Origin: Candidatus Iainarchaeum sp.
Lineage (GTDB): Archaea > Iainarchaeota > Iainarchaeia > Iainarchaeales > 0-14-0-20-30-16
Length of the DNA stretch: 6,542 nt
Assembly (NCBI GenBank): GCA_903916665.1
Contig: CAIWXP010000125.1
Coordinates: 1-6,542 of the forward strand
Direction of reading: 5' to 3'
A model generated the notes under the pieces. That model saw only the letters and a program-made list of their open reading frames with translations. It searched no databases and was not told where the DNA came from. The translations under genes were made by a program, and so were the position numbers. The first letter of the stretch is position 1. Each line of letters begins with the position of its first letter. Shown in pieces: positions 1 through 6,542 of this stretch.

Positions 1-3000
1 GATCCACCATCTTTAATTAATAAACTTTGTATATTAAAATCACAATTTTTTATTGTTACTTCATTAATTTTTGCACTGCCAAAAAAGAATACAGAAATAA
101 TATTTGACAAGTATACTTTGTGATAATTACAATCTATTGTTATATTTTGATCTACACCTGCATTTTCATCAGTAAAACTTAAACCATAATAAAATCCACT
201 AACACTATTAACATCATCTGTTAAATAAATTGTTGAACCTAAATCTGCTTCTGTTAAAGTATTTACATAATCAATTGAATTTGCATTTGTTAATGCTAAA
301 TAATCATAGTAATTTTTATCGGAACCTAAAATAGTTATTGGATTATCACATATTCCTGAAGGTGATTTATCATCAAGAGTACATATTAAATTACCATCTT
401 GCCCATACCAAACGTTTCCACCAATATTCTCAGAAAAATCATTGAAACCCAATAGTGCTCTTTCATTAATATCTTTTGTTAAAACATCATTAAAGTTTAA
501 ATTAACATCATGGTTAATATCGTTATAGGCCACAACAGTTATAAAATTACTATCTTGATTAAAATCTCTAAATATGTTATTATATATTGTTCCAGAATTA
601 ATATCTATTGCACCCATTAATAAAGGAAAATTAGTATCTGAATTTGTTAATACTAAATTTGCAATTATTCCAGAACCATAAAATAAAGCTTCATGATTAT
701 CATTGTATGCGTCTGCTTTAAAACCATTGATATTTAAATTATTAAAATTAGGATTAAAAAATATTACATTATCAGTAATAATATCATTATTTAAAAAATT
801 CATATTAATATCCAAATTAGACACAAAATTAAAAAATATCCACCCAAAGTTAAAAACATTGGAATCATTCAAATTAAAATTGCTAACTGTATTTAAAAAA
901 GCAAATATTACCCCACTATTATTATTAATATCCAATCCCAAGATTATTAAATTATTTAAATTTCCTGCATTCGCCAAAAATAATGCTGCTTTTCCACCAT
1001 TTAAATTACTATCTAAGTAAATTTTTGTATTGTTAAAATTTAAATTTAAATCACCATTAGAATAATTTCCAAAAAAAGCACCATTATTCACATCTATACT
1101 AGAATTATTAAATATAAAATTATTTATGTTTGAATCCGAACTTTTAATAAAACCATCAAAATTCATTCCATTTGAATCTAATTTTAAATCTAAATTCAAA
1201 TCATCAAATTGCAAATAGTTTGCATTTACATTATTAAAATCAAATTTCAAATAACTATCTTGAGGAAAAATAGTTCTGTAAGTATCTGGATTGTCCTGTG
1301 AAATTGCCCAATTATTTGGTATATCATCAGACCAGTTCTCAAAACTAGGATTTAATATTATATTATTATAATTCATTGTTGAATAGGTATTTATATCATC
1401 TAAATAAACTTCACTCCCTGTACTTAAAAAAATTATATCCACATTTGTACTATTATTAACTGTTATAGATGGAATAATTATTTGTGATGAATAATTTGAT
1501 GCAATTCCCAGAGCAGATATATTATTATTACTAGGAATATTTGTCATATCCCAAGAATGCATATTAAAATTGTAATAATAATTATATAACCCATCAAAAA
1601 AATGATACATTAGTCCCAAATTATATGAATGATTACTATTATTTGAACCAGTTTTTGCATAGAAAGTAGTCGTATAGCTTTGATATGAATTCATATATAC
1701 TGTTTGTGTAATACTTGCATTACCATCTGGGTTTGTATTATGGAATTGTAATGCAGAACTACCTGTATTTGCGTTGGTTGATTGTAAAATACTTGGACTA
1801 CTATGATCTCCTGTGTGATCTCCAAACAGATTAGAAAAAAATGCAGTATTTATTAAATTCAAATTACTATCTTTAAAATTAATATGATTATAATCTGATG
1901 CCCCAACAACAATAGGATAGAATGATTCACTGCTATTTAAATCTAAATTTGATATGGTTAAAACATTTGAGTCACCCATATTCAAAAATGGAAGTCCATT
2001 ATTATCATAAAAATTTGAACCAAAAAAATTCAAATCTAGGTTATTTACTTGGAACAAAGAAAACATTCCATTATTATTTAAAACAATATTTGAATCAAAA
2101 ATATTTAATTTATTTAAATCTGCAAAAATAATAAATCCTAGTGAAATATTTACACCATCAAGATTTAAATCAGCATTTGAAATTTCAAAATTACAATTTC
2201 TAAATGTTAATGTATCCATTGCAAAACCAGTTTCAAAAAAACCAGTGAAAGAATTTGAATCTAAATTAATGTTATGATAATTACAATCTATAGTCATATT
2301 TTGACCTATACCTGCATTTTCATCAGCAAAATTCAAATCTAAATATATTCCATTATTTATATTTGAAATATCTGAATTCAAATCATAGATACCATTAATG
2401 TATGATTCATCTATATGATTAATTGCTGGTGGCGGACCAGCTGGTGGCGGACCAGCTGGTGGCGGACCACCTTTTCCATTATCACTAAAAGTTTGCCATT
2501 GCAAATAGGGATAACCATTATTATAATGAGAATCAATATTCCAAATATGATCATCCCAGCCAGCATCTAAAAAAGTTGAAAAATTTGTCATTTCTTCTGT
2601 TGTTTTGGGTGTTCCTTTTCCAGTATTATCGCTTTGACCAGAAGTATTTCTATCATAAAAAGAATTTGTTACTGTTCCAGTATTTATTCCTATTAATCCC
2701 CCATTATGGCTACCACCATTTGTTAGTAAACTTCCTGCAGAATAAGAATTATAAACATTACCTGTATTTGCACCAACTAAACCACCAATATAATCTAAAT
2801 TGCCCCAAACAGAATTAATAGCATAGGAATTATTTATATCGCTATGATTAAATCCAACCAAACCACCAATATAACTACTTAATGAATGTGAATTACAAAG
2901 AGAATAGGAACTTAAAATATTACCATAGCTTTCTCCAACCAACCCTCCAATATCTAAATTTCCAATAATTTGACCTGTCGAATAATTATTTGAAATAGTA

Positions 3001-3440
3001 GTATAATTATCTAAATGACCTATCAATGCACCTACATAGTTATGCCCAGTTATATTTACATCTATTAGTCCTAAATTTCTAATTGTTGCATTATGCGTAT
3101 ATCCAACTAAACCAACATAATCTTGAGTTGATCTATTGATATATAAATTACTTATTGTGTGACCATTACCATCAAATAAACCAGAAAAAGAATTAATATC
3201 ATTTCCAATAGGTGTAAATCCTTTTCCACCATCCCAACTTCGAGTAATATTACAATCAACATCATTTGCTAAAATATAGCTTGCAGATAAATTTTCCTGA
3301 ACCGCATTCAAATCATGACAACCCATAATTTGGTAGGGACTTCCTGATGAACCATCTCCACCACCAAAGGATGCAAAACTAAAACTTAAACAGAAAACTG
3401 TTAAAACAAAGAAAATCAAAAAACTATTTATAAAACGCAA
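1..3440 (-). CDS. Giant secreted surface/adhesin-like protein, N-terminus complete, C-terminus cut by the window edge (at least 1146 codons). Order: signal peptide, GLUG-repeat head, (GPPPA)3 hinge, Asn-rich beta-solenoid-like and jelly-roll-like modules.
   Basis: I checked by hand the minus frame whose codons occupy plus-strand triplets starting at positions divisible by 3. No TTA/CTA/TCA occurs in that register from 3482 down to position 3, so the frame leaves the window open at position 1. That probably explains its absence from the track, which also omits the other edge-truncated ORF. The in-frame upstream stop is at 3483-3485. The first canonical start below it is TTG 3438-3440, 4 nt after AGGTGA. 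The translation starts MRFINSFLIFFVLTVFCLSFSFASFGGGDGSSGSPYQIMGCHDLNAVQENLSASYILANDVDCNITRSWDGGKGFTPIGNDINSFSGLFDGNGHTISNLYINR. It carries six GLUG-type motifs: YVGLVG, YVGALIG, IGGLVG, YIGGLVG (twice) and NGGLIG. Confidence 0.85.
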   Translation of the reverse strand, partial: MRFINSFLIFFVLTVFCLSFSFASFGGGDGSSGSPYQIMGCHDLNAVQENLSASYILANDVDCNITRSWDGGKGFTPIGNDINSFSGLFDGNGHTISNLYINRSTQDYVGLVGYTHNATIRNLGLIDVNITGHNYVGALIGHLDNYTTISNNYSTGQIIGNLDIGGLVGESYGNILSSYSLCNSHSLSSYIGGLVGFNHSDINNSYAINSVWGNLDYIGGLVGANTGNVYNSYSAGSLLTNGGSHNGGLIGINTGTVTNSFYDRNTSGQSDNTGKGTPKTTEEMTNFSTFLDAGWDDHIWNIDSHYNNGYPYLQWQTFSDNGKGGPPPAGPPPAGPPPAINHIDESYINGIYDLNSDISNINNGIYLDLNFADENAGIGQNMTIDCNYHNINLDSNSFTGFFETGFAMDTLTFRNCNFEISNADLNLDGVNISLGFIIFADLNKLNIFDSNIVLNNNGMFSLFQVNNLDLNFFGSNFYDNNGLPFLNMGDSNVLTISNLDLNSSESFYPIVVGASDYNHINFKDSNLNLINTAFFSNLFGDHTGDHSSPSILQSTNANTGSSALQFHNTNPDGNASITQTVYMNSYQSYTTTFYAKTGSNNSNHSYNLGLMYHFFDGLYNYYYNFNMHSWDMTNIPSNNNISALGIASNYSSQIIIPSITVNNSTNVDIIFLSTGSEVYLDDINTYSTMNYNNIILNPSFENWSDDIPNNWAISQDNPDTYRTIFPQDSYLKFDFNNVNANYLQFDDLNLDLKLDSNGMNFDGFIKSSDSNINNFIFNNSSIDVNNGAFFGNYSNGDLNLNFNNTKIYLDSNLNGGKAALFLANAGNLNNLIILGLDINNNSGVIFAFLNTVSNFNLNDSNVFNFGWIFFNFVSNLDINMNFLNNDIITDNVIFFNPNFNNLNINGFKADAYNDNHEALFYGSGIIANLVLTNSDTNFPLLMGAIDINSGTIYNNIFRDFNQDSNFITVVAYNDINHDVNLNFNDVLTKDINERALLGFNDFSENIGGNVWYGQDGNLICTLDDKSPSGICDNPITILGSDKNYYDYLALTNANSIDYVNTLTEADLGSTIYLTDDVNSVSGFYYGLSFTDENAGVDQNITIDCNYHKVYLSNIISVFFFGSAKINEVTIKNCDFNIQSLLIKDGG
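121..179 (-). repeat. Internal dispersed repeat, copy B (module-start motif ...FTDENAGVDQNITIDCNYH...)
   Basis: This is the partner of 2275-2333. Protein similarity continues downstream: TLTFRNCNFEI in module 1 versus EVTIKNCDFNI in module 2. Confidence 0.9.
1386..1800 (-). other. Possible carbohydrate-binding-module-like jelly-roll domain (CBM4_9-like), about 138 aa
   Basis: The segment reads SPSILQSTNANTGSSALQFHNTNPDGNASITQTVYMNSYQSYTTTFYAKTGSNN...NVDIIFLSTGSEVYLDDINTY. It shows the G.sAL.f / ..ItQ.V.....Y...FyAK / ...v.lDDi pattern typical of CBM4_9/galactose-binding-like folds. It is followed directly by ILNPSFENWSDDIPNNWAI, the classic N-terminal NxxFE..W start of another such domain. 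This is motif-level resemblance only. Confidence 0.35.
2275..2333 (-). repeat. Internal dispersed repeat, copy A (module-start motif ...FADENAGIGQNMTIDCNYH...)
   Basis: 53 of 59 nt are identical (hand-aligned, no gaps) to 121-179. The offset is 2154 nt, which is exactly 718 codons and so in frame. Confidence 0.9.
2425..2469 (-). repeat. Perfect 3 x 15-bp tandem repeat (plus strand GCTGGTGGCGGACCA) encoding (GPPPA)3
   Basis: Units 2425-2439, 2440-2454 and 2455-2469 are identical at every base. In the CDS frame they read GGT CCG CCA CCA GCT three times, within KGGPPPAGPPPAGPPPAIN. The repeat is a local GC-rich spike in a very AT-rich gene. Confidence 0.95.
2487..3341 (-). other. GLUG-motif repeat head domain (about 285 aa)
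   Basis: The pattern SPYQI..x..DL..V..NLSASYILANDVD...W.....GF.PIG....F.G.FDGNGHTISNLYINR is followed by repeated x-VGGLVG-x units at about 2688-3122. It ends with GKGTPKTTEEMTNFSTFLDAGWDDHIWNIDSHYNNGYPYLQWQ. This matches my recollection of the GLUG-motif family (Pfam PF07581) and its usual flanks. No HMM was run. Confidence 0.65.
3372..3440 (-). other. Predicted N-terminal signal peptide / membrane anchor of the giant protein
   Basis: MRFINSFLIFFVLTVFCLSFSFA has a basic residue at position 2, an uninterrupted hydrophobic core and a small-residue SFA motif, followed by a Gly/Ser-rich segment (SFGGGDGSSGS). The cleavage site is a guess. Confidence 0.55.
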
Positions 3441-3444
3441 ATCA

Positions 3445-3450
3445 TCACCT
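3445..3450 (-). promoter_or_regulatory. Shine-Dalgarno (AGGTGA) for the giant surface gene
   Basis: The minus strand reads AGGTGATGATTTG. AGGTGAT is complementary to the conserved 16S 3' end (GAUCACCU), with a 4-nt spacer to the TTG. Confidence 0.6.
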
Positions 3451-3489
3451 AAGATATATATATTGTGTGATAAGATTATGATTTACTTA

Positions 3490-3504
3490 TTTATAAATAT
3501 TTCG
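3490..3504 (-). promoter_or_regulatory. Candidate archaeal BRE + TATA box for the surface gene
   Basis: The minus strand reads CGAAATA-TTTATAAA, a purine-rich BRE-like heptamer directly upstream of a TATA octamer at 3490-3497. The octamer centre lies about 53 nt upstream of the TTG. That predicts a TSS near 3467 and a leader of about 27 nt containing the SD. Confidence 0.45.
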
Positions 3505-3643: not shown

Positions 3644-4933
3644 TTATGGAGTTAATCTATCTGGATCTCTTGGAAACAAAACAGCTTCTTTAGTATTATC
3701 TAAATTTGCCATTCTTCCTACTATTCTATCCACACCCATTCCAAAACCACCATGGCTTGGGCAACCATATCTCAAAAGCTTAGAATATTCTTTTAAATCT
3801 TCTAAATTTAATCCTTTTGCCTCTGCCTGTTTCAAAAACAATTCTAATTTGTGCTCTCTTACCGCACCAGTTGTTATTTCTTGACCCTTATACAATAAAT
3901 CAAATGAATTAGTAGTTCGTCCATCTGTATTATAATTATGATAAAATGGTCTACACGAAATAGGATAATCAATTACTAAAACAAAATCCGATTTATCTTT
4001 TTCCAAAAAATGTTTTCCTAAAATTGCTTCTGCTTCAGGATCTAAATCATCATCTAATATTTTCTTACCATATTTTTTATCCAATAATTCCAAAGCATCA
4101 TAGAATTTAATTACTGGAAATCTATTTGGAATATTAAAACTAATATTCATTTCTTTTAATAATTCAGAATCATTTTTTTCTAAATGTGACATAATATATT
4201 TAAACATATTTTCAGTTATGTCAGTAACATCCGATAATTTATTAATAAAAGATAATTCTGCATCCAATCCAGTGAATTCAGTTAGGTGTCTTGTGGTATG
4301 ACTTTTTTCAGCTCTAAATACTGCACCAATTTCATATATTTTTTCAAAACCTGCTGCCTGTAACATTTGTTTATACACCTGCGGACTCTGTGATAAATAG
4401 GCAACTTTACCCATATAATCTACCTTGAATAAAGAAGCACCAGATTCTGCACCTATTGTTGTTATTTTGGGAGTATTTACACTAATAAATCCTTCCTTTT
4501 GAAAATACTCATTTACATAGCCTAATATTTTACTTCTCAAAATAAATATATTCAAATTTTTCCTATGTCTTAAATCCAAAAATCTATTGTCAAATCTTGT
4601 TGAAAATTCTGATTCAATTTTTCCAGACAAATCCAATGGCAAAGGTTCTGCTTTGGTTAAGATTTCTATTTCTTTTGCAACAATTTCAAAACCATTTCTA
4701 GCTTGCTCAGACAATTGTAATAAACCAGAAACATTAACAACACTTTCACAGGTTATTTTTGATAATTCTTCAAACAATTCTGGTGTTTCTTTTTTCTTTG
4801 CAATAATTTGTAAAGTTCCTTGTCTTCTACGTAAAATAATAAATGCTAAATTTCCCAATAGTCTTAACTCTTCAACAAATCCCGATATTGAAACTGTTTT
4901 TCCTGCTTCTTTTTTCAATTCTTCAAATGCCAT
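3644..4933 (-). CDS. aspS: Aspartyl-tRNA synthetase, archaeal/eukaryotic type (class IIb)
   Basis: Complete 429-aa ORF with the N-terminal OB-fold anticodon-binding pattern (VSISGFVEELRLLGNLAFIILRRRQGTLQI). It also has LPLDLSGK...FDNRFLDLR and the Asp-recognition QSPQVYKQ. Motif 2 is FRAEKSHTTRHLTEFTGLDAE and motif 3 is GGFGMGVDRIVGRM, and the C-terminus is VLFPRDPDRLTP. The length and the lack of the bacterial GAD insertion indicate the archaeal type. AGGTGA lies 5 nt upstream of the ATG. Confidence 0.93.
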   Translation of the reverse strand: MAFEELKKEAGKTVSISGFVEELRLLGNLAFIILRRRQGTLQIIAKKKETPELFEELSKITCESVVNVSGLLQLSEQARNGFEIVAKEIEILTKAEPLPLDLSGKIESEFSTRFDNRFLDLRHRKNLNIFILRSKILGYVNEYFQKEGFISVNTPKITTIGAESGASLFKVDYMGKVAYLSQSPQVYKQMLQAAGFEKIYEIGAVFRAEKSHTTRHLTEFTGLDAELSFINKLSDVTDITENMFKYIMSHLEKNDSELLKEMNISFNIPNRFPVIKFYDALELLDKKYGKKILDDDLDPEAEAILGKHFLEKDKSDFVLVIDYPISCRPFYHNYNTDGRTTNSFDLLYKGQEITTGAVREHKLELFLKQAEAKGLNLEDLKEYSKLLRYGCPSHGGFGMGVDRIVGRMANLDNTKEAVLFPRDPDRLTP

Positions 4934-4969: not shown

Positions 4970-5347
4970 TTATCTTGGTTTTCTCAAGCTTTGCAACCAT
5001 GCTTTTGTTTCTCTAGACATTGGTCTTTTACCTTTTTGCCCTCTTGTTAATTCTTGTTTTGGTTTTGGATCTTCTAACTTTCTTATTGGACTAGTTTTAA
5101 CAAATCCTAATGATACTAAAACAATATCTATTTTTGATTGTCTTTCTAATATTGCGTCTCTTTCTTTTTGTGTAGCAACTAACGCATCATAATGTTTTCT
5201 TTTATTATCTGGTTTTCTCGCATTTTTATACAAATCATCTAATTGTAATATTCTTGCAATCAAAAGCATATAATTTTGTCTTAATCTTTCTCGCTCTAAA
5301 ACTAAGGCACTAATTTCTTTTGCATCCATGATAATCATTAACCACAA
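4970..5347 (-). CDS. Hypothetical small protein (119-125 aa) with a predicted helical/coiled-coil N-terminal half and a strongly basic C-terminal tail
   Basis: The ORF is in the supplied track. I recognise no family. The N-terminal half is heptad-like (EISALVLERERLRQNYMLLIARILQLDDLYK; KERDAILERQSKI). The C-terminal tail is TRGQKGKRPMSRETKAWLQSLRKPR. The track start is TTG 5347 (MWLMIIM...). ATG 5338 or ATG 5329 (MDAKEIS...) are at least as plausible. Short gaps of 30 and 36 nt to both neighbours suggest co-transcription. Confidence 0.6.
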   Translation of the reverse strand: MWLMIIMDAKEISALVLERERLRQNYMLLIARILQLDDLYKNARKPDNKRKHYDALVATQKERDAILERQSKIDIVLVSLGFVKTSPIRKLEDPKPKQELTRGQKGKRPMSRETKAWLQSLRKPR

Positions 5348-5377: not shown

Positions 5378-6010
5378 TTATAAAAAGGTTCTTAGAATCA
5401 TCAACAAATCATCAGAAATATTTTGCCTTTGACCATCAATAACCAAATATACATTTTCTTTATTTAATTTTGGCAAATATTTCCAAGTGTTTTCTAATTT
5501 GTTATGTTTAACAAATTGCAAATATTTTGTTAATAAAGGATAAAATTGTCTTGGATTTTCTACTTTATATTGCAATCTATCCAAAGCACAAAAATCATAG
5601 TGTTCATCATAAAATTTAAATGCAGGAAATAATCTACAAATTAAAGGTCTTGAGCCATATATTGTACATTGATGATTCTTCAAAAAAATACAGGCACCAT
5701 CTTTTTGTTTTAATGCCAAAATAGAAAATAAATAATATTTCTTATTTTTCAATACAACTTCTAAAAAATCAGTTTTTGCATAATTATCATATTCAGTTAA
5801 TTCAAAATAATAGTCTAAATGGTTTTCAACAAAATTCTTGTAATTTATTTTTAACTTTTTAGCGATTGCTTTTGCTTCATTTGGAAATAAATATATTTTA
5901 TACTTCCTACAACACAGATCACAGCCATTACATAGATTTTCAACAAGCTTTATTTTTGGCTTTATTTTTGATTTAATGTTCTGCTTTATTTTTGCTTTTG
6001 TTTTAACCAT
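5378..6010 (-). CDS. YkgJ-family cysteine-cluster protein (putative zinc/iron-chelating CxxCxxCC domain, UPF0153) with a Lys-rich N-terminal extension
   Basis: Complete 210-aa ORF. It has CNGCDLCC (C-x2-C-x2-CC) near the N-terminus and the second half-site DGACIFLKNHQCTIYGSRPLICRLFP. Together these match the Pfam PF03692 pattern as I recall it. Confidence 0.75.
   Translation of the reverse strand: MVKTKAKIKQNIKSKIKPKIKLVENLCNGCDLCCRKYKIYLFPNEAKAIAKKLKINYKNFVENHLDYYFELTEYDNYAKTDFLEVVLKNKKYYLFSILALKQKDGACIFLKNHQCTIYGSRPLICRLFPAFKFYDEHYDFCALDRLQYKVENPRQFYPLLTKYLQFVKHNKLENTWKYLPKLNKENVYLVIDGQRQNISDDLLMILRTFL
5947..5994 (-). repeat. Three copies of a 12-nt motif (plus strand GCTTTATTTTTG), two of them in tandem, encoding the alternating-Lys N-terminus
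   Basis: Exact copies lie at 5947-5958, 5959-5970 and 5983-5994. On the coding strand they give ..KAKIKQNIKSKIKPKIK... Confidence 0.85.
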
Positions 6011-6060
6011 ATTAAACTATAACTAAAATCCTTTATATTCTTTTAGGTTATATCTATACT
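6011..6060. promoter_or_regulatory. 50-bp divergent intergenic region with one central TATA octamer, a candidate bidirectional archaeal promoter
   Basis: TTTATATT at 6032-6039 is centred at 6035.5, exactly 25.5 nt from the A of ATG 6010 (minus gene) and of ATG 6061 (plus gene). It is flanked by the inverted hexamers CTAAAA (6023-6028) and TTTTAG (6041-6046). Neither gene has an SD-like element at a usable distance. Confidence 0.45.
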
Positions 6061-6542
6061 ATGGAATTTAAAAAGATAACCTATCCTAAAGATGAAGAAA
6101 AACATCAGGATACTGCTGAATGGTGGTATTTCAATGGTTTTTTAGAAAGTAAAACTGAAAAATTTGCCTATATGCATACTTTATTTAGAACCAATCTAAA
6201 ATATAACAATCTATTAAAAATGATTCCTTTTCATAGAAAACTTTTCAAAGATTATTATTTTTCTCATTCTCTATTAATAAATTTAAAAACAAAACAAATG
6301 ATAACTGATATAAAACATCATGTGCACATATCAAAAAAATCATTTAAAGATATTTTATTATCATTTGAATACGAAGATTGTAAATTAAAAGAAAAAAATA
6401 TGTTTGAATATGATTTAAAAAATAAATTTTTAGATTTAAATATGAAATCAAATAAAAAACCCCTATTAGAAAATGCAACCGGAATAATTAAAAACGAAAA
6501 AAATTTCACCTATTATTACAGTTTAACAAATTTAAAAACTAA
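6061..6542 (+). CDS. CrtC/AttH-like lipocalin-domain protein (hydroxyneurosporene-synthase-like / COG5621-like), N-terminal 160 codons, truncated by the window end
   Basis: Frame 1 is open from ATG 6061 to the window end (translated by hand, no stops). It reads MEFKKITYPKDEEKHQDTAEWWYFNGFLESKTEKFAYMHTLFR...NFTYYYSLTNLKT. The YP.D...H....EWWY..G.L........tlFR and YYYS.T.L motifs are the hallmarks I associate with Pfam PF07143. It is absent from the track because it is edge-truncated. Confidence 0.6.
   Translation, partial: MEFKKITYPKDEEKHQDTAEWWYFNGFLESKTEKFAYMHTLFRTNLKYNNLLKMIPFHRKLFKDYYFSHSLLINLKTKQMITDIKHHVHISKKSFKDILLSFEYEDCKLKEKNMFEYDLKNKFLDLNMKSNKKPLLENATGIIKNEKNFTYYYSLTNLKT

What the first reader, a model, noticed from the sequence alone, without database searches (positions are those of the whole stretch)
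1..3440. The largest gene in the window is missing from the ORF track: a TTG-initiated, edge-truncated giant surface protein with an unusual domain combination
More than half of the window is one uninterrupted minus-strand frame, checked triplet by triplet. The three plus-strand track ORFs inside it are only its antisense shadow. The protein combines a signal peptide, a GLUG-repeat head of about 285 aa, a proline hinge, an Asn-rich region with 22-28-aa rungs and a jelly-roll-like domain. Example rungs are NL.LNF.. and N..I.N..F, as in FIFNNSSIDVNNGAFF / LNLNFNNTKIYLDS / NLIILGLDINNNSGVIF, suggesting a beta-solenoid. A second copy of the module then begins just before the edge. I do not recognise this overall architecture as a described family. 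In a small low-GC archaeon, possibly an episymbiont, it would be a prime candidate for cell-cell or host-surface attachment. Function and full length are unknown from this window.
Basis: partly seen in the sequence, partly recalled or inferred. Interest (0 to 1): 0.7.

Follow-up and report, generated by a model that had tools for sequence, protein, structure and literature searches.

The report
Truncated giant archaeal surface protein gene
More than half of this window is the start of one very large secreted cell-surface protein of a small low-GC archaeon. It joins a well-known "GLUG" head to repeat modules of a rare, unannotated family, and it most likely serves attachment, which is a familiar kind of protein in a new combination.

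Summary
The minus strand is stop-free from 3482 to the window edge (1160 codons, chance about 1e-48). The gene starts at TTG 3440 behind an AGGTGAT ribosome-binding site, and the product opens with a signal peptide.

Residues 24-323 are a genuine GLUG head (Pfam E 6.5e-10; thousands of homologues). A (GPPPA)x3 hinge follows. Then comes a 719-aa module whose beginning recurs at residue 1059.

The module matches no Pfam family and no solved structure. Only nine relatives (E<=1e-3) turned up among 1.84 billion proteins. They come from low-GC archaeal contigs, one labelled Diapherotrites. Two of these contigs show the same gene order as the window: CxxCxxCC, small ORF, AspRS, giant gene.

Complete relatives carry 1 to 6 or more modules, CARDB-like domains, and a C-terminal membrane helix rather than PGF-CTERM. 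None found has a GLUG head.

A beta-solenoid fold is probable but not proven. The AlphaFold model reached pLDDT 60, no Foldseek match is significant though most of the best are beta-helix proteins, and NosD matches in relatives are sub-threshold. The jelly-roll/CBM reading is untested.

I read it as a new variant of a known kind: giant archaeal surface adhesin-like proteins.

The parts
3488..3497 (-). TATA-like box TTTATAAATA, 48 nt upstream of the start codon. This is a possible archaeal promoter element.
   Evidence: Read directly from the sequence. It was not tested statistically, and such strings are common in DNA of 25% GC, so it is weak evidence.
3444..3450 (-). Shine-Dalgarno-like AGGTGAT, 3 nt upstream of the start codon.
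   Evidence: Related giant genes have AGGTG or GAGGT at the same place.
3438..3440 (-). TTG start codon.
   Evidence: It is the first in-frame start after the stop at 3483-3485. The product begins MRF, like the ATG-initiated syntenic orthologue P0125.
3372..3440 (-). Signal peptide, residues 1-23: MRFINSFLIFFVLTVFCLSFSFA|SF.
   Evidence: Read from the sequence: a basic n-region, a hydrophobic core and an SFA cleavage-type motif. All relatives start the same way. No signal-peptide predictor was available.
2472..3371 (-). GLUG head, residues 24-323: about six GLUG rungs of 27-28 aa plus the usual N- and C-terminal caps of this domain. By homology it is a beta-helix.
   Evidence: Pfam PF07581 scores E 6.5e-10, 39.2 bits against a cut-off of 20.5, in 3 stretches, with a weak Peptidase_M26_N match. 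There are 3390 homologues, and all 120 listed align over only about a quarter of the query, which I take to be this head. PDB IgA1 protease chains 6xjb, 7jgj and 7uvl match at E 8e-4 to 3e-3. By my numbering of the 665-1963 construct, the matched stretch falls in the beta-helix domain described in PMC7695701.
2424..2471 (-). Proline hinge, residues 324-339: G-GPPPA-GPPPA-GPPPA.
   Evidence: Read from the translation.
2166..2423 (-). Module 1, N-terminal cap, residues 340-425. Conserved motif ...LG.T..L..D......G......L.F.DENAG....I.IDCN.H.......F......I..VT..NC.F, with Cys386 and Cys416.
   Evidence: It aligns with the module-2 start at residue 1059 and with the N-termini of P0121, P0122, P0125, P0128, P0131 and P0132.
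1806..2165 (-). Module 1, first Asn/Asp-rich repeat region, residues 426-545. Presumed solenoid rungs.
   Evidence: phmmer matches to repeat regions of P0121, P0125, L013p and L015p. The rung motif is enriched.
1296..1805 (-). Insert domain, residues 546-715. It is beta-rich and ends ...VYLDDIN...NPSFENW.
   Evidence: Separately conserved. P0127 and P0129 match residues 552-712: E 1e-14 and 3e-13 against the small local family set, and 1.4e-6 and 3.6e-5 against the whole library. Module relatives lack it. There is no Pfam, PDB or PHROG match.
576..1295 (-). Module 1, second repeat region, residues 716-955. It starts with the unit motif SYLKFDFNNVNANYLQFDDLNLDL and is the presumed beta-solenoid core.
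   Evidence: It aligns over about 340 aa with P0122, P0123, P0128, L013p, L014p and L015p (E 1e-12 to 1e-21). In the AlphaFold model made with alignment A5, residues 730-955 have pLDDT 55-81 and about three strands per 21-30 residues. Most of the best Foldseek matches are parallel beta-helix proteins, and none is significant.
267..575 (-). Module 1, C-terminal cap, residues 956-1058: IYNNIF.D.N...(F)N..L...I.ER......GGNVWY..DGNLIC..D...PSGICD....ILGSDKNYYDYLAL, with Cys1020 and Cys1031.
   Evidence: This is the best-conserved part of the family, seen in 19 caps aligned in A7. The corresponding ends of two L015p modules give sub-threshold Pfam NosD matches (E 2.7e-4 and 3.4e-3) to the C-terminal end of that profile. 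The cap itself is poorly modelled, pLDDT 36-50.
3..266 (-). Start of module 2 (N-terminal cap), residues 1059-1146, cut by the window edge.
   Evidence: Local alignment to residues 340-422 scores 164, against a shuffle mean of 50 and a maximum of 68. pLDDT is 60-83 in the model. The same cap-to-cap junction occurs twice in P0132.

Best explanation
**What it is.** Bases 3-3440 (minus strand) encode the first 1146 residues of a giant, Sec-exported cell-surface protein of a low-GC, DPANN-type archaeon.

**Shown:**
- A signal-peptide-like N-terminus.
- A canonical GLUG head.
- A (GPPPA)x3 hinge.
- Tandem modules of about 720 aa. Each is bounded by a conserved, cysteine-bearing N-cap and C-cap, and they belong to a rare family that no domain library describes.
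- In module 1, an extra 170-aa domain inserted between two repeat regions.

**Inferred from orthologues at the same genomic position:** the missing C-terminal part holds one or more further modules, CARDB-like Ig domains, a stalk, a single transmembrane helix and a basic cytoplasmic tail. The protein would therefore stand on the membrane with its N-terminus outermost.

**Inferred from modelling and weak profile matches:** each module is a beta-solenoid rod, probably a right-handed parallel beta-helix of the NosD or pectate-lyase type. Modules in series would form a long, stiff spacer whose length is set by the module number, which ranges from 1 to at least 6 in relatives.

**Most likely mechanism (inferred, not shown):** a fibrous adhesin. 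The rod carries the GLUG head, on its flexible proline hinge, away from the cell. The head, and perhaps the inserted domain, bind a surface ligand on a host cell or a substrate.
For: **Gene reality**
- 1160 open codons, with a chance probability of about 1e-48.
- A Shine-Dalgarno site and a start whose product opens MRF like its orthologue.
- GC3 of 11-15% in every part of the gene and in the neighbouring genes.

**GLUG head**
- Pfam match above the curated threshold.
- 3390 homologues, whose listed alignments cover only about a quarter of the query.
- Sequence matches to the IgA1 protease beta-helix domain.

**Module family**
- Nine relatives (E<=1e-3) in 1.84 billion representatives, plus three loci found with the cap profile.
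- Caps are conserved across 19 modules.
- Module number ranges from 1 to at least 6.

**Orthology and anchor**
- The order CxxCxxCC (62% identical), small ORF, AspRS, giant gene is shared with L015 and L016.
- Complete relatives (P0121, P0122, P0128, P0131, P0132, L016g2) end in one transmembrane helix followed by Lys/Arg.
- CARDB, E 3e-9, in L015p.

**Archaeal origin**
- aEF-1alpha on the L015 contig.
- Archaeal ribosomal and transcription genes next to P0126, and archaease and Hel308 next to P0122.
- P0124 is labelled Candidatus Diapherotrites.

**Solenoid**
- All-beta model with pLDDT 55-81 in the core.
- Most of the best Foldseek matches are parallel beta-helices.
- Sub-threshold NosD matches in relatives.
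- Rung motif enriched about five-fold, with spacings near 25 and 75 residues.

**Adhesion as a role**
- GLUG proteins of archaea have been proposed as adhesins (PMC9723798).
- Giant surface proteins of DPANN archaea are proposed to bind hosts (PMC10266531).
- Pectin-lyase-like surface proteins are predicted in Nanobdella (10.1101/2023.10.27.564410).
Against: - No binding partner, expression data or host is known, so the function rests on analogy only.
- The fold of the modules is not established. No Pfam or PDB sequence match exists for the window protein. No Foldseek match is significant. The model is only moderately confident, and its C-cap is poor.
- The C-terminus of this particular protein is not in the window, and the source contig could not be extended.
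- No relative found has a GLUG head, so the head-on-rod picture rests on this one sequence.
- N-glycosylation sequons (29) are no more frequent than the composition predicts.
Confidence: 0.6

Rival explanations
1. The protein is a surface-displayed glycan-degrading enzyme, not an adhesin. The beta-helix modules, like phage tailspikes, pectate or alginate lyases and the epimerase AlgE6, would cut or modify polysaccharide or S-layer glycan of a host or a food substrate. The inserted domain would act as a carbohydrate-binding module.
For: The weak structural neighbours are mostly enzymes of this kind: WceF, HK620 and P22 tailspikes, PL6 alginate lyases, pectate lyases and AlgE6. A relative's module gives a weak Pfam P22 tailspike match, E 0.088. 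Relatives of the insert domain sit in tandem in a protein of a probable tailed-virus element. Pectin-lyase-like surface proteins of Nanobdella were suggested to degrade the host S-layer (10.1101/2023.10.27.564410).
Against: No match to any lyase, hydrolase or CBM family. No conserved acidic or basic catalytic constellation could be identified; the invariant positions lie in the caps. Up to six or more near-equivalent modules in series is typical of spacers and adhesins, not of enzymes.
Confidence: 0.2
2. The protein is a structural envelope component: an S-layer or halomucin-like protective coat protein. It would have no specific ligand.
For: It has a signal peptide, an acidic pI of 4.05, a large size and a membrane anchor in relatives, all of which fit archaeal envelope proteins. 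GLUG motifs occur in a coding sequence next to halomucin homologues of Haloquadratum (PMC4330952).
Against: Each genome carries two or three divergent paralogues with different module numbers. That pattern is unusual for a lattice-forming S-layer protein. The family is very rare even among DPANN-like contigs. No S-layer family match was found.
Confidence: 0.12
3. The Asn-rich modules are not right-handed beta-helices. They would be another repeat fold, such as a leucine-rich-repeat-like solenoid, or be largely irregular.
For: The rung motifs (L..L.L..SN.) resemble the LRR consensus shifted by one position. The only PDB sequence match of the cap profile is an LRR protein, TLR6/VLR, at E 2.5. 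Several LRR proteins appear low in the Foldseek list. Periodicity is weak. The model has pLDDT 60, and its TM-scores to beta-helices are only 0.15-0.28.
Against: The model has almost no helices and about three strands per rung, which fits a beta-helix better than an LRR. Beta-helix proteins are far more numerous than LRR proteins in both Foldseek lists. NosD is the only Pfam family to recur in relatives.
Confidence: 0.1
4. The frame is a pseudogene remnant or an assembly artefact of low-complexity sequence.
For: The gene is cut by the contig end. A related gene in L016 is broken by a scaffold gap, which shows that such genes are hard to assemble.
Against: 3.4 kb are free of stops at 9% expected stop frequency. 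Domain order is conserved. The caps, with paired cysteines, are conserved across 19 modules. GC3 is uniform. An intact start region is present.
Confidence: 0.03

Closest known systems
GLUG-motif surface proteins (Pfam PF07581; the Peptidase_M26_N beta-helix of Streptococcus pneumoniae IgA1 protease, PDB 6xjb/7jgj)
   Same: Residues 24-323 are a regular member of this domain family. The Pfam match is above threshold, 3390 homologues reach up to 47% identity, and the domain has its usual N- and C-terminal caps. As in most bacterial members, the domain sits near the N-terminus of a large secreted protein. Archaeal GLUG proteins have been proposed as adhesins (PMC9723798).
   Different: There is no M26 peptidase part and no HExxH motif. 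What follows the head is not any of the domains precomputed for the 120 best homologues, which include the T9SS sorting tail, FlgD_ig, PKD, fn3 and SLH. Instead it is a family found only in low-GC archaeal contigs.
The unnamed family of multi-module surface proteins of low-GC DPANN-type archaea: P0121, P0122, P0123, P0124 (GenBank PIU22411.1, Candidatus Diapherotrites), P0126/P0131, P0128, P0132-P0134, and the genes in L014, L015 and L016
   Same: The same module with the same N-cap and C-cap motifs and paired cysteines. The same kind of signal peptide and Shine-Dalgarno-type start region. The same genomic position as the L015 and L016 genes.
   Different: None of these proteins has a GLUG head or the proline hinge; their first module follows the signal peptide directly. 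None of their modules has the 170-aa insert. The window protein's N-caps, like those of P0125, lack the first two of the four cysteines seen in the N-caps of most other relatives.
NosD-type and pectate-lyase-like right-handed parallel beta-helix domains (Pfam PF05048, PF13229)
   Same: A probable all-beta solenoid with rungs of about 21-30 residues. The module end ...IYNN.F....FN......GGN.W....D....G.CD......YDYLPL resembles, from my memory, the end of archaeal NosD-like domains. Two relatives' module ends match the last 100-135 positions of the NosD profile at E 2.7e-4 and 3.4e-3. Most structural neighbours are of this fold.
   Different: No match reaches the Pfam threshold, and the window protein itself gives none. 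No structural match is significant. Composition is extreme, 18-22% Asn.
Giant surface proteins of DPANN archaea: the SPEARE proteins of Nanohaloarchaeota and SVXNc_0300 (PMC10266531)
   Same: A very large, Sec-exported, membrane-anchored, acidic surface protein in a small archaeal genome. Proposed to mediate contact with a host.
   Different: There is no sequence relationship. The relatives here have no VirB4/TraG-like ATPase domain; complete relatives end 7 to about 100 residues after the membrane helix. The building blocks differ: solenoid modules here, Ig, fibronectin and laminin-type domains there.

Membership tests
GLUG motif family (PF07581) | Match to the GLUG profile above Pfam's gathering score, in several consecutive repeats. 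| tested here: met
   39.2 bits against a cut-off of 20.5, E 6.5e-10, 3 stretches. About six GLUG rungs can be read in residues 110-270.
GLUG motif family (PF07581) | Homology of the whole head to other GLUG proteins, and to the solved beta-helix of IgA1 protease. | tested here: met
   3390 homologues with E up to 1e-248; the 120 listed align over about a quarter of the query. PDB 6xjb, 7jgj and 7uvl match at E 8e-4 to 3e-3. By my numbering of the 665-1963 construct, the matched stretch lies within the beta-helix domain of PMC7695701.
M26 IgA1-specific metallopeptidase | Catalytic domain with an HExxH zinc site. | tested here: not met
   Only the N-terminal-region profile matches, weakly (E 0.004, below the cut-off). 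There is no HExxH anywhere in the 1146 residues. The unseen C-terminus cannot be excluded.
Right-handed parallel beta-helix (NosD PF05048, Beta_helix PF13229) | Profile match at or above the curated threshold. | tested here: not met
   No match in the whole protein or in tiles at E up to 10. Relatives' trimmed module ends score 20.9 and 17.3 bits against a cut-off of 23.6. Only 1 of 23 whole modules matches, at E 0.67.
Right-handed parallel beta-helix (NosD PF05048, Beta_helix PF13229) | Three-stranded rungs coiled into a right-handed helix in the 3D structure. | tested here: inconclusive
CBM_4_9 / jelly-roll carbohydrate-binding module (PF02018) | Profile match, or a jelly-roll fold, for residues 546-715. 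| tested here: not met
   No Pfam match for the domain or for its relatives P0127 and P0129 at E up to 10. The profile of alignment A6 finds nothing in the PDB. The fold itself was not testable: the single-sequence model is unusable, pLDDT about 30, and MAFFT could not place the relatives for a second model.
Multi-module surface proteins of low-GC DPANN-type archaea (unnamed) | Module bounded by the N-cap (...IDCN...NC.F...) and the C-cap (YNN.F...GGN[LVY]W...G[IL]CD...Y.DYL.L). | tested here: met
   Both caps are present in module 1, and the N-cap is present again at residue 1059. phmmer E-values to relatives against the small local family set are 1e-12 to 1e-21.
Multi-module surface proteins of low-GC DPANN-type archaea (unnamed) | Same genomic position as other members. 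| tested here: met
   CxxCxxCC (62% identity), small ORF, AspRS, giant gene, in the same order and orientation in L015 and L016.
Multi-module surface proteins of low-GC DPANN-type archaea (unnamed) | C-terminal CARDB-like domains, a stalk, a single transmembrane helix and a basic tail. | not testable with these tools
   The window ends at residue 1146. The source contig could not be extended. The feature is present in P0121, P0122, P0128, P0131, P0132 and L016g2.
PGF-CTERM / archaeosortase-anchored proteins | C-terminal PGF motif followed by a transmembrane helix. | not testable with these tools
   The C-terminus is absent from the window. The complete relatives end in a transmembrane helix plus Lys/Arg, with no PGF motif.
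SPEARE-type giant proteins of Nanohaloarchaeota | VirB4/TraG-like ATPase domain behind the membrane anchor, and Ig or laminin-type ectodomains. | tested here: not met
   No such domain in the window protein. There is none in complete relatives either, whose cytoplasmic tails are at most about 100 residues.

The most novel reading that the evidence does not exclude
The roughly 720-aa modules would be a previously undescribed family of self-capping beta-solenoid rod units. Some DPANN archaea would string them together, in 1 to 6 or more copies, as length-adjustable spacers to project exchangeable tip domains through or beyond cell envelopes. In this genome a GLUG head was grafted on as the tip, and a domain shared with a probable virus tail-fibre-type protein was inserted. 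Together these would determine which host or surface the cell can attach to.
Probability: 0.25. Interest if true: 0.6.

Novelty: new variant of a known kind. Interest (0 to 1): 0.45.

Why it matters
DPANN archaea live attached to other cells, yet the molecules that make and specify that contact are largely unknown. This gene offers a concrete candidate: a membrane-anchored rod of a lineage-restricted module family with an identifiable, widely studied tip domain.

The module family has no entry in Pfam or NCBIfam and no solved relative, so describing it would remove a blind spot in the annotation of these genomes. Variation in module number and the presence of several paralogues per genome suggest rapid diversification, as expected for host-recognition proteins.

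The practical value is modest. The general kind is already known, the function is untested, and the gene is incomplete.

Tried and rejected
**Extending the contig**
- The exact AspRS and the 125-aa protein are not on record.
- The exact CxxCxxCC protein is on a 720-bp contig and on one 5-10 kb contig, probably the window itself.
- Scans of genome and metagenome contigs with the 807-aa non-GLUG part found no relative.

**Sequence searches with the non-GLUG part**
- The word-indexed search of 5.8 billion proteins returned nothing. This was a sensitivity failure caused by low-complexity words, because the exhaustive HMMER search then found nine relatives.
- The same search with the family alignment returned only P0126.

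**AspRS scan of genomes**
- It gave only about 30%-identical aaRS paralogues from bacteria, which say nothing about taxonomy.

**Structure prediction**
- The single-sequence AlphaFold run of residues 340-1146 reached pLDDT 38 and was discarded.
- MAFFT misplaced the N-cap and insert-domain fragments. The second model therefore covers only residues 700-1146.

**Fold libraries**

**Profile searches against the PDB**
- Alignments A1, A6 and A7 gave nothing useful.

**Periodicity**
- Simple autocorrelation is weak, with z at most 3.5.

**Ideas considered and rejected**
- Recent foreign origin of the GLUG head, suggested by the higher G+C of 2250-3500. GC3 there is 12%, as everywhere else, so the difference comes from amino-acid composition.
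- Enrichment of N-glycosylation sequons. The count of 29 equals the shuffle expectation of 28.6.
- An alternative genetic code. The frame is open under table 11 and homologues align throughout.

Full report
**1. The observation**

The minus strand of the window is free of stop codons from 3482 to base 3, which is 1160 codons, and the frame runs off the left edge. This is why the mechanical ORF list omits it.

- With 35% A and 38% T on the coding strand, 9.1% of random codons would be stops. The chance of such an open run is about 1e-48.
- The five other frames of the same stretch contain 70-182 stops.
- The codon before the frame is TAA (3483-3485). No ATG, GTG or TTG occurs in frame until TTG at 3438-3440.
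- AGGTGAT lies three bases upstream of that TTG. TTTATAAATA lies 48 bases upstream.
- The product starts MRFINSFLIFFVLTVFCLSFSFA/SF, which reads as a typical signal peptide. The orthologue found later starts MRFNYLFFLF... from an ATG. This supports the TTG start.
- The three plus-strand ORFs inside the gene match no protein family.

**2. The head**

- Pfam finds the GLUG motif (PF07581) at E 6.5e-10, 39.2 bits against a threshold of 20.5, plus a sub-threshold match to the N-terminal region of M26 IgA1 proteases.
- A search of 5.8 billion proteins gives 3390 homologues. All 120 listed align over only about a quarter of the query, which I take to be this head. The few that carry names come from Balneola, Planctomycetota, Chloroherpeton, Aliarcobacter, Gracilibacteria and others, and one is from the haloarchaeon Halobellus.
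- Their precomputed domains show the head joined to many different C-terminal parts: T9SS tail, FlgD_ig, PKD, fn3, SLH.
- The head also matches the solved IgA1 proteases at E 8e-4 to 3e-3. By my numbering of the 665-1963 construct, the matched stretch falls in the domain described as a beta-helix (PMC7695701).
- There is no HExxH motif, so nothing suggests a peptidase.
- GLUG proteins have already been noted in archaea. Fifteen acquired membrane proteins of Methanimicrococcus were proposed to act in adhesion (PMC9723798). A GLUG coding sequence lies next to halomucin homologues of Haloquadratum (PMC4330952).

**3. The hinge and the module**

After G-(GPPPA)x3 (residues 324-339) comes an Asn/Asp/Ile/Leu/Phe-rich region.

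- Its first 83 residues recur at residue 1059. The local alignment scores 164, against a shuffle mean of 50 and a maximum of 68. One module is therefore 719 residues long, and a second one begins 88 residues before the window edge.
- The non-GLUG part matches no Pfam or NCBIfam family, whole or in tiles, and no PDB sequence.
- The word-indexed protein search found nothing. An exhaustive HMMER search of 1.84 billion cluster representatives found nine proteins.
- Seven of the nine share the module: P0121-P0126 and P0128. Two share only residues 552-712: P0127 and P0129.
- A scan of metagenome contigs with the cap motif added three loci, L013-L015.
- Looking up P0125 gave L016.

**4. Anatomy of the family**

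All members start with a signal peptide followed directly by an N-cap. A typical N-cap reads C.D.N....G.TL.L..DI..W.G.CF.L......G....I.C.....D.N......F.......I.F.NC.

Repeat regions rich in D/N follow, often opening with ..YL.FDFNN.D.NYL.F.DLNLNL. Each module closes with a C-cap: IYNN.F.D.N....F.......DFN..L.EN..KR.....DDSN..GGNLW....G.N.C..D...P.GICD....I.GSD.NYYDYLPL. This cap is seen 19 times.

Module number varies:
- One in P0121, P0122, P0128, P0131 and L014.
- Two in the L016 gene.
- Three in P0132 (L013).
- At least six in the L015 gene.

After the last module, complete members have a Gly-rich linker or CARDB-like Ig domains (CARDB E 3e-9 in L015p). Two have a weak carboxypeptidase-regulatory-like domain. 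All end in a single transmembrane helix and a Lys/Arg stretch, and four of them also carry a conserved YDF[TL].[TS]..Y cytoplasmic tail. No PGF-CTERM is present.

The window protein fits this pattern. It has two N-caps with Cys386/Cys416 and Cys1104/Cys1133, and one C-cap with Cys1020/Cys1031. It differs in two ways: the GLUG head and hinge precede the first module, and a 170-residue domain is inserted between the two repeat regions of module 1.

**5. Origin and orthology**

- The relatives lie on contigs of 22-32% G+C.
- These contigs carry archaeal genes: ribosomal protein L10 with the archaeal insert, Spt5-NGN, FtsZ and IF-2B next to P0126; archaease, RtcB and a Hel308-type helicase next to P0122; aEF-1alpha on the L015 contig.
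- P0124 is GenBank PIU22411.1 from a Candidatus Diapherotrites MAG.
- In L015 and L016 the giant gene follows CxxCxxCC (62% identical to the window's), a small ORF and an AspRS. The window has the same order and orientation.
- The window gene is therefore the positional orthologue of multi-module, membrane-anchored proteins. That is the basis for predicting its missing C-terminus.
- GC3 is 11-15% in every part of the gene, head included, and in the neighbours. The head is therefore not a recent import.

**6. Fold of the modules**

- A single-sequence AlphaFold run failed, with pLDDT 38.
It gave mean pLDDT 60 and pTM 0.53.
  - Residues 730-955: pLDDT 55-81.
  - The C-cap: 36-50.
  - The N-cap of module 2: 60-83.
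  - The model is almost purely beta, with about three strands per 21-30 residues.
- Foldseek against the PDB and against viral models found no significant match (best E 1.2 and 0.015).
- Both lists nevertheless consist mostly of right-handed parallel beta-helix proteins: WceF, HK620 and P22 tailspikes, PL6 alginate lyases, pectate lyases, AlgE6, tapirin and antigen 43.
- The trimmed ends of two L015 modules match the last 100-135 positions of Pfam NosD at E 2.7e-4 and 3.4e-3, just below threshold. Whole modules do not match.
- A rung motif ([LIVFMY].[DNST]S[NDST][LIVFMY]) is about five times more frequent than in shuffles, with spacings peaking near 25-30 and 70-85 residues. Plain autocorrelation is weak.

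I conclude that a beta-solenoid, probably of the NosD or pectate-lyase type, is the best reading, at about 70%. It is not demonstrated. An LRR-like repeat is the main structural alternative.

**7. The insert**

- Residues 546-715 align with P0127 and with two tandem copies in P0129 (alignment A6).
- The domain begins after an N..FE.W strand and ends in ..VYLDD.
- It has no match in Pfam, the PDB or PHROGs. It could not be modelled with an alignment, because MAFFT misplaces the relatives.
- P0129 lies on 40-50 kb contigs of closely packed unannotated genes that include a tail-sheath-like gene (phrog_16991, E 1e-6). This suggests a virus tail-fibre-type context.

**8. Mechanism**

*Shown:* the protein is exported, it has the modular anatomy above, and it belongs to a family whose complete members end in a membrane anchor.

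*Inferred:* the protein stands on the membrane by its C-terminus. The modules form a stiff rod. The GLUG head, on a proline hinge, is the distal tip, and it binds a ligand on another cell or surface, possibly together with the insert.

This matches what has been proposed for GLUG proteins in gut methanogens (PMC9723798), for giant surface proteins of nanohaloarchaea (PMC10266531) and for pectin-lyase-like surface proteins of Nanobdella (10.1101/2023.10.27.564410).

Rivals:
- A surface glycan-degrading enzyme (0.2).
- A structural or coat protein (0.12).
- A non-beta-helix repeat fold (0.1).
- A pseudogene or artefact (0.03).

**9. Novelty**

- The head is known.
- The general kind, a giant anchored surface protein of a DPANN archaeon, is known.
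- The module family exists in public data but is undescribed and very rare.
- The combination of a GLUG head with these modules, and the insert, were seen only here.

I rate it a new variant of a known kind, with moderate interest (0.45).

Noticed in passing
window 3647-4933 (-); L015 5321-6877; L016 8385-9935: The AspRS upstream of the giant gene is of the archaeal non-discriminating type in the window (NF003483, 495 bits). In the two syntenic loci the gene at the same position is a bacterial-type AspRS (NF001750, 617 and 607 bits), only 28-36% identical to the window's. The flanking CxxCxxCC gene is nevertheless 62% identical. This looks like an in-place replacement of one AspRS type by the other.
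   Followed up: partly
C-termini of P0124, P0128, P0132 (L013 about 17000-17248) and the L016 gene (about 16600-16892): Behind the single transmembrane helix and a Lys/Arg stretch, four relatives share a cytoplasmic motif YDF[TL].[TS]..Y. Two of them (P0132, L016g2) also have a charged tail of about 90-100 residues ending ...LKEKTG.D. This suggests a conserved intracellular partner.
   Followed up: no
L016 10001-16892: The database protein P0125 (223 aa) is an artefact of a scaffold gap, a run of N with duplicated flanks near 10690-10790. The real gene is P0125 plus the following 1984-aa ORF. A second giant paralogue starts 60 bases after it (16952 onwards).
   Followed up: yes
L017/L018 6001-7713 (P0129) and neighbours: The only non-archaeal relative of the insert domain carries it in tandem. 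It sits on 40-50 kb contigs (17 contigs carry it) of co-directional unannotated ORFs with a tail-sheath-like gene (phrog_16991, E 1e-6). This is probably a contractile-tailed virus or a related element.
   Followed up: partly
L013 and L015 (both on JGI contig Ga0172371_10000440, 63.8 kb): One genome fragment carries two giant paralogues with 3 and at least 6 modules. The L013 gene shares its neighbourhood (Peptidase_U32, Metallophos upstream, DHH/DHHA1 downstream) with P0121 in L011, so there are at least two conserved genomic positions for such genes.
   Followed up: partly
window 4973-5347 (-): A 125-aa ORF with a TTG start lies between CxxCxxCC and AspRS. It has no Pfam or NCBIfam match. 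A small ORF of 97-154 aa occupies the same position in L015 and L016, but no similarity was detected at E below 1e-5.
   Followed up: partly
window 6016-6540 (+): An open frame running off the right edge matches the CrtC N-terminal lipocalin domain (PF07143, E 3.9e-14). It is divergently oriented from the CxxCxxCC gene.
   Followed up: no
window 5381-6010 (-): The CxxCxxCC (PF03692) protein is found with an identical sequence on ENA assembly ERZ27245625 (contig k141_629406, 720 bp). This points to a sample in which the same organism occurs.
   Followed up: partly
window 2250-3500: G+C is 29-32% here, against 20-26% in 750-1500. The difference lies entirely in codon positions 1 and 2 (Gly-rich head); GC3 is 12% in both.
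   Followed up: yes
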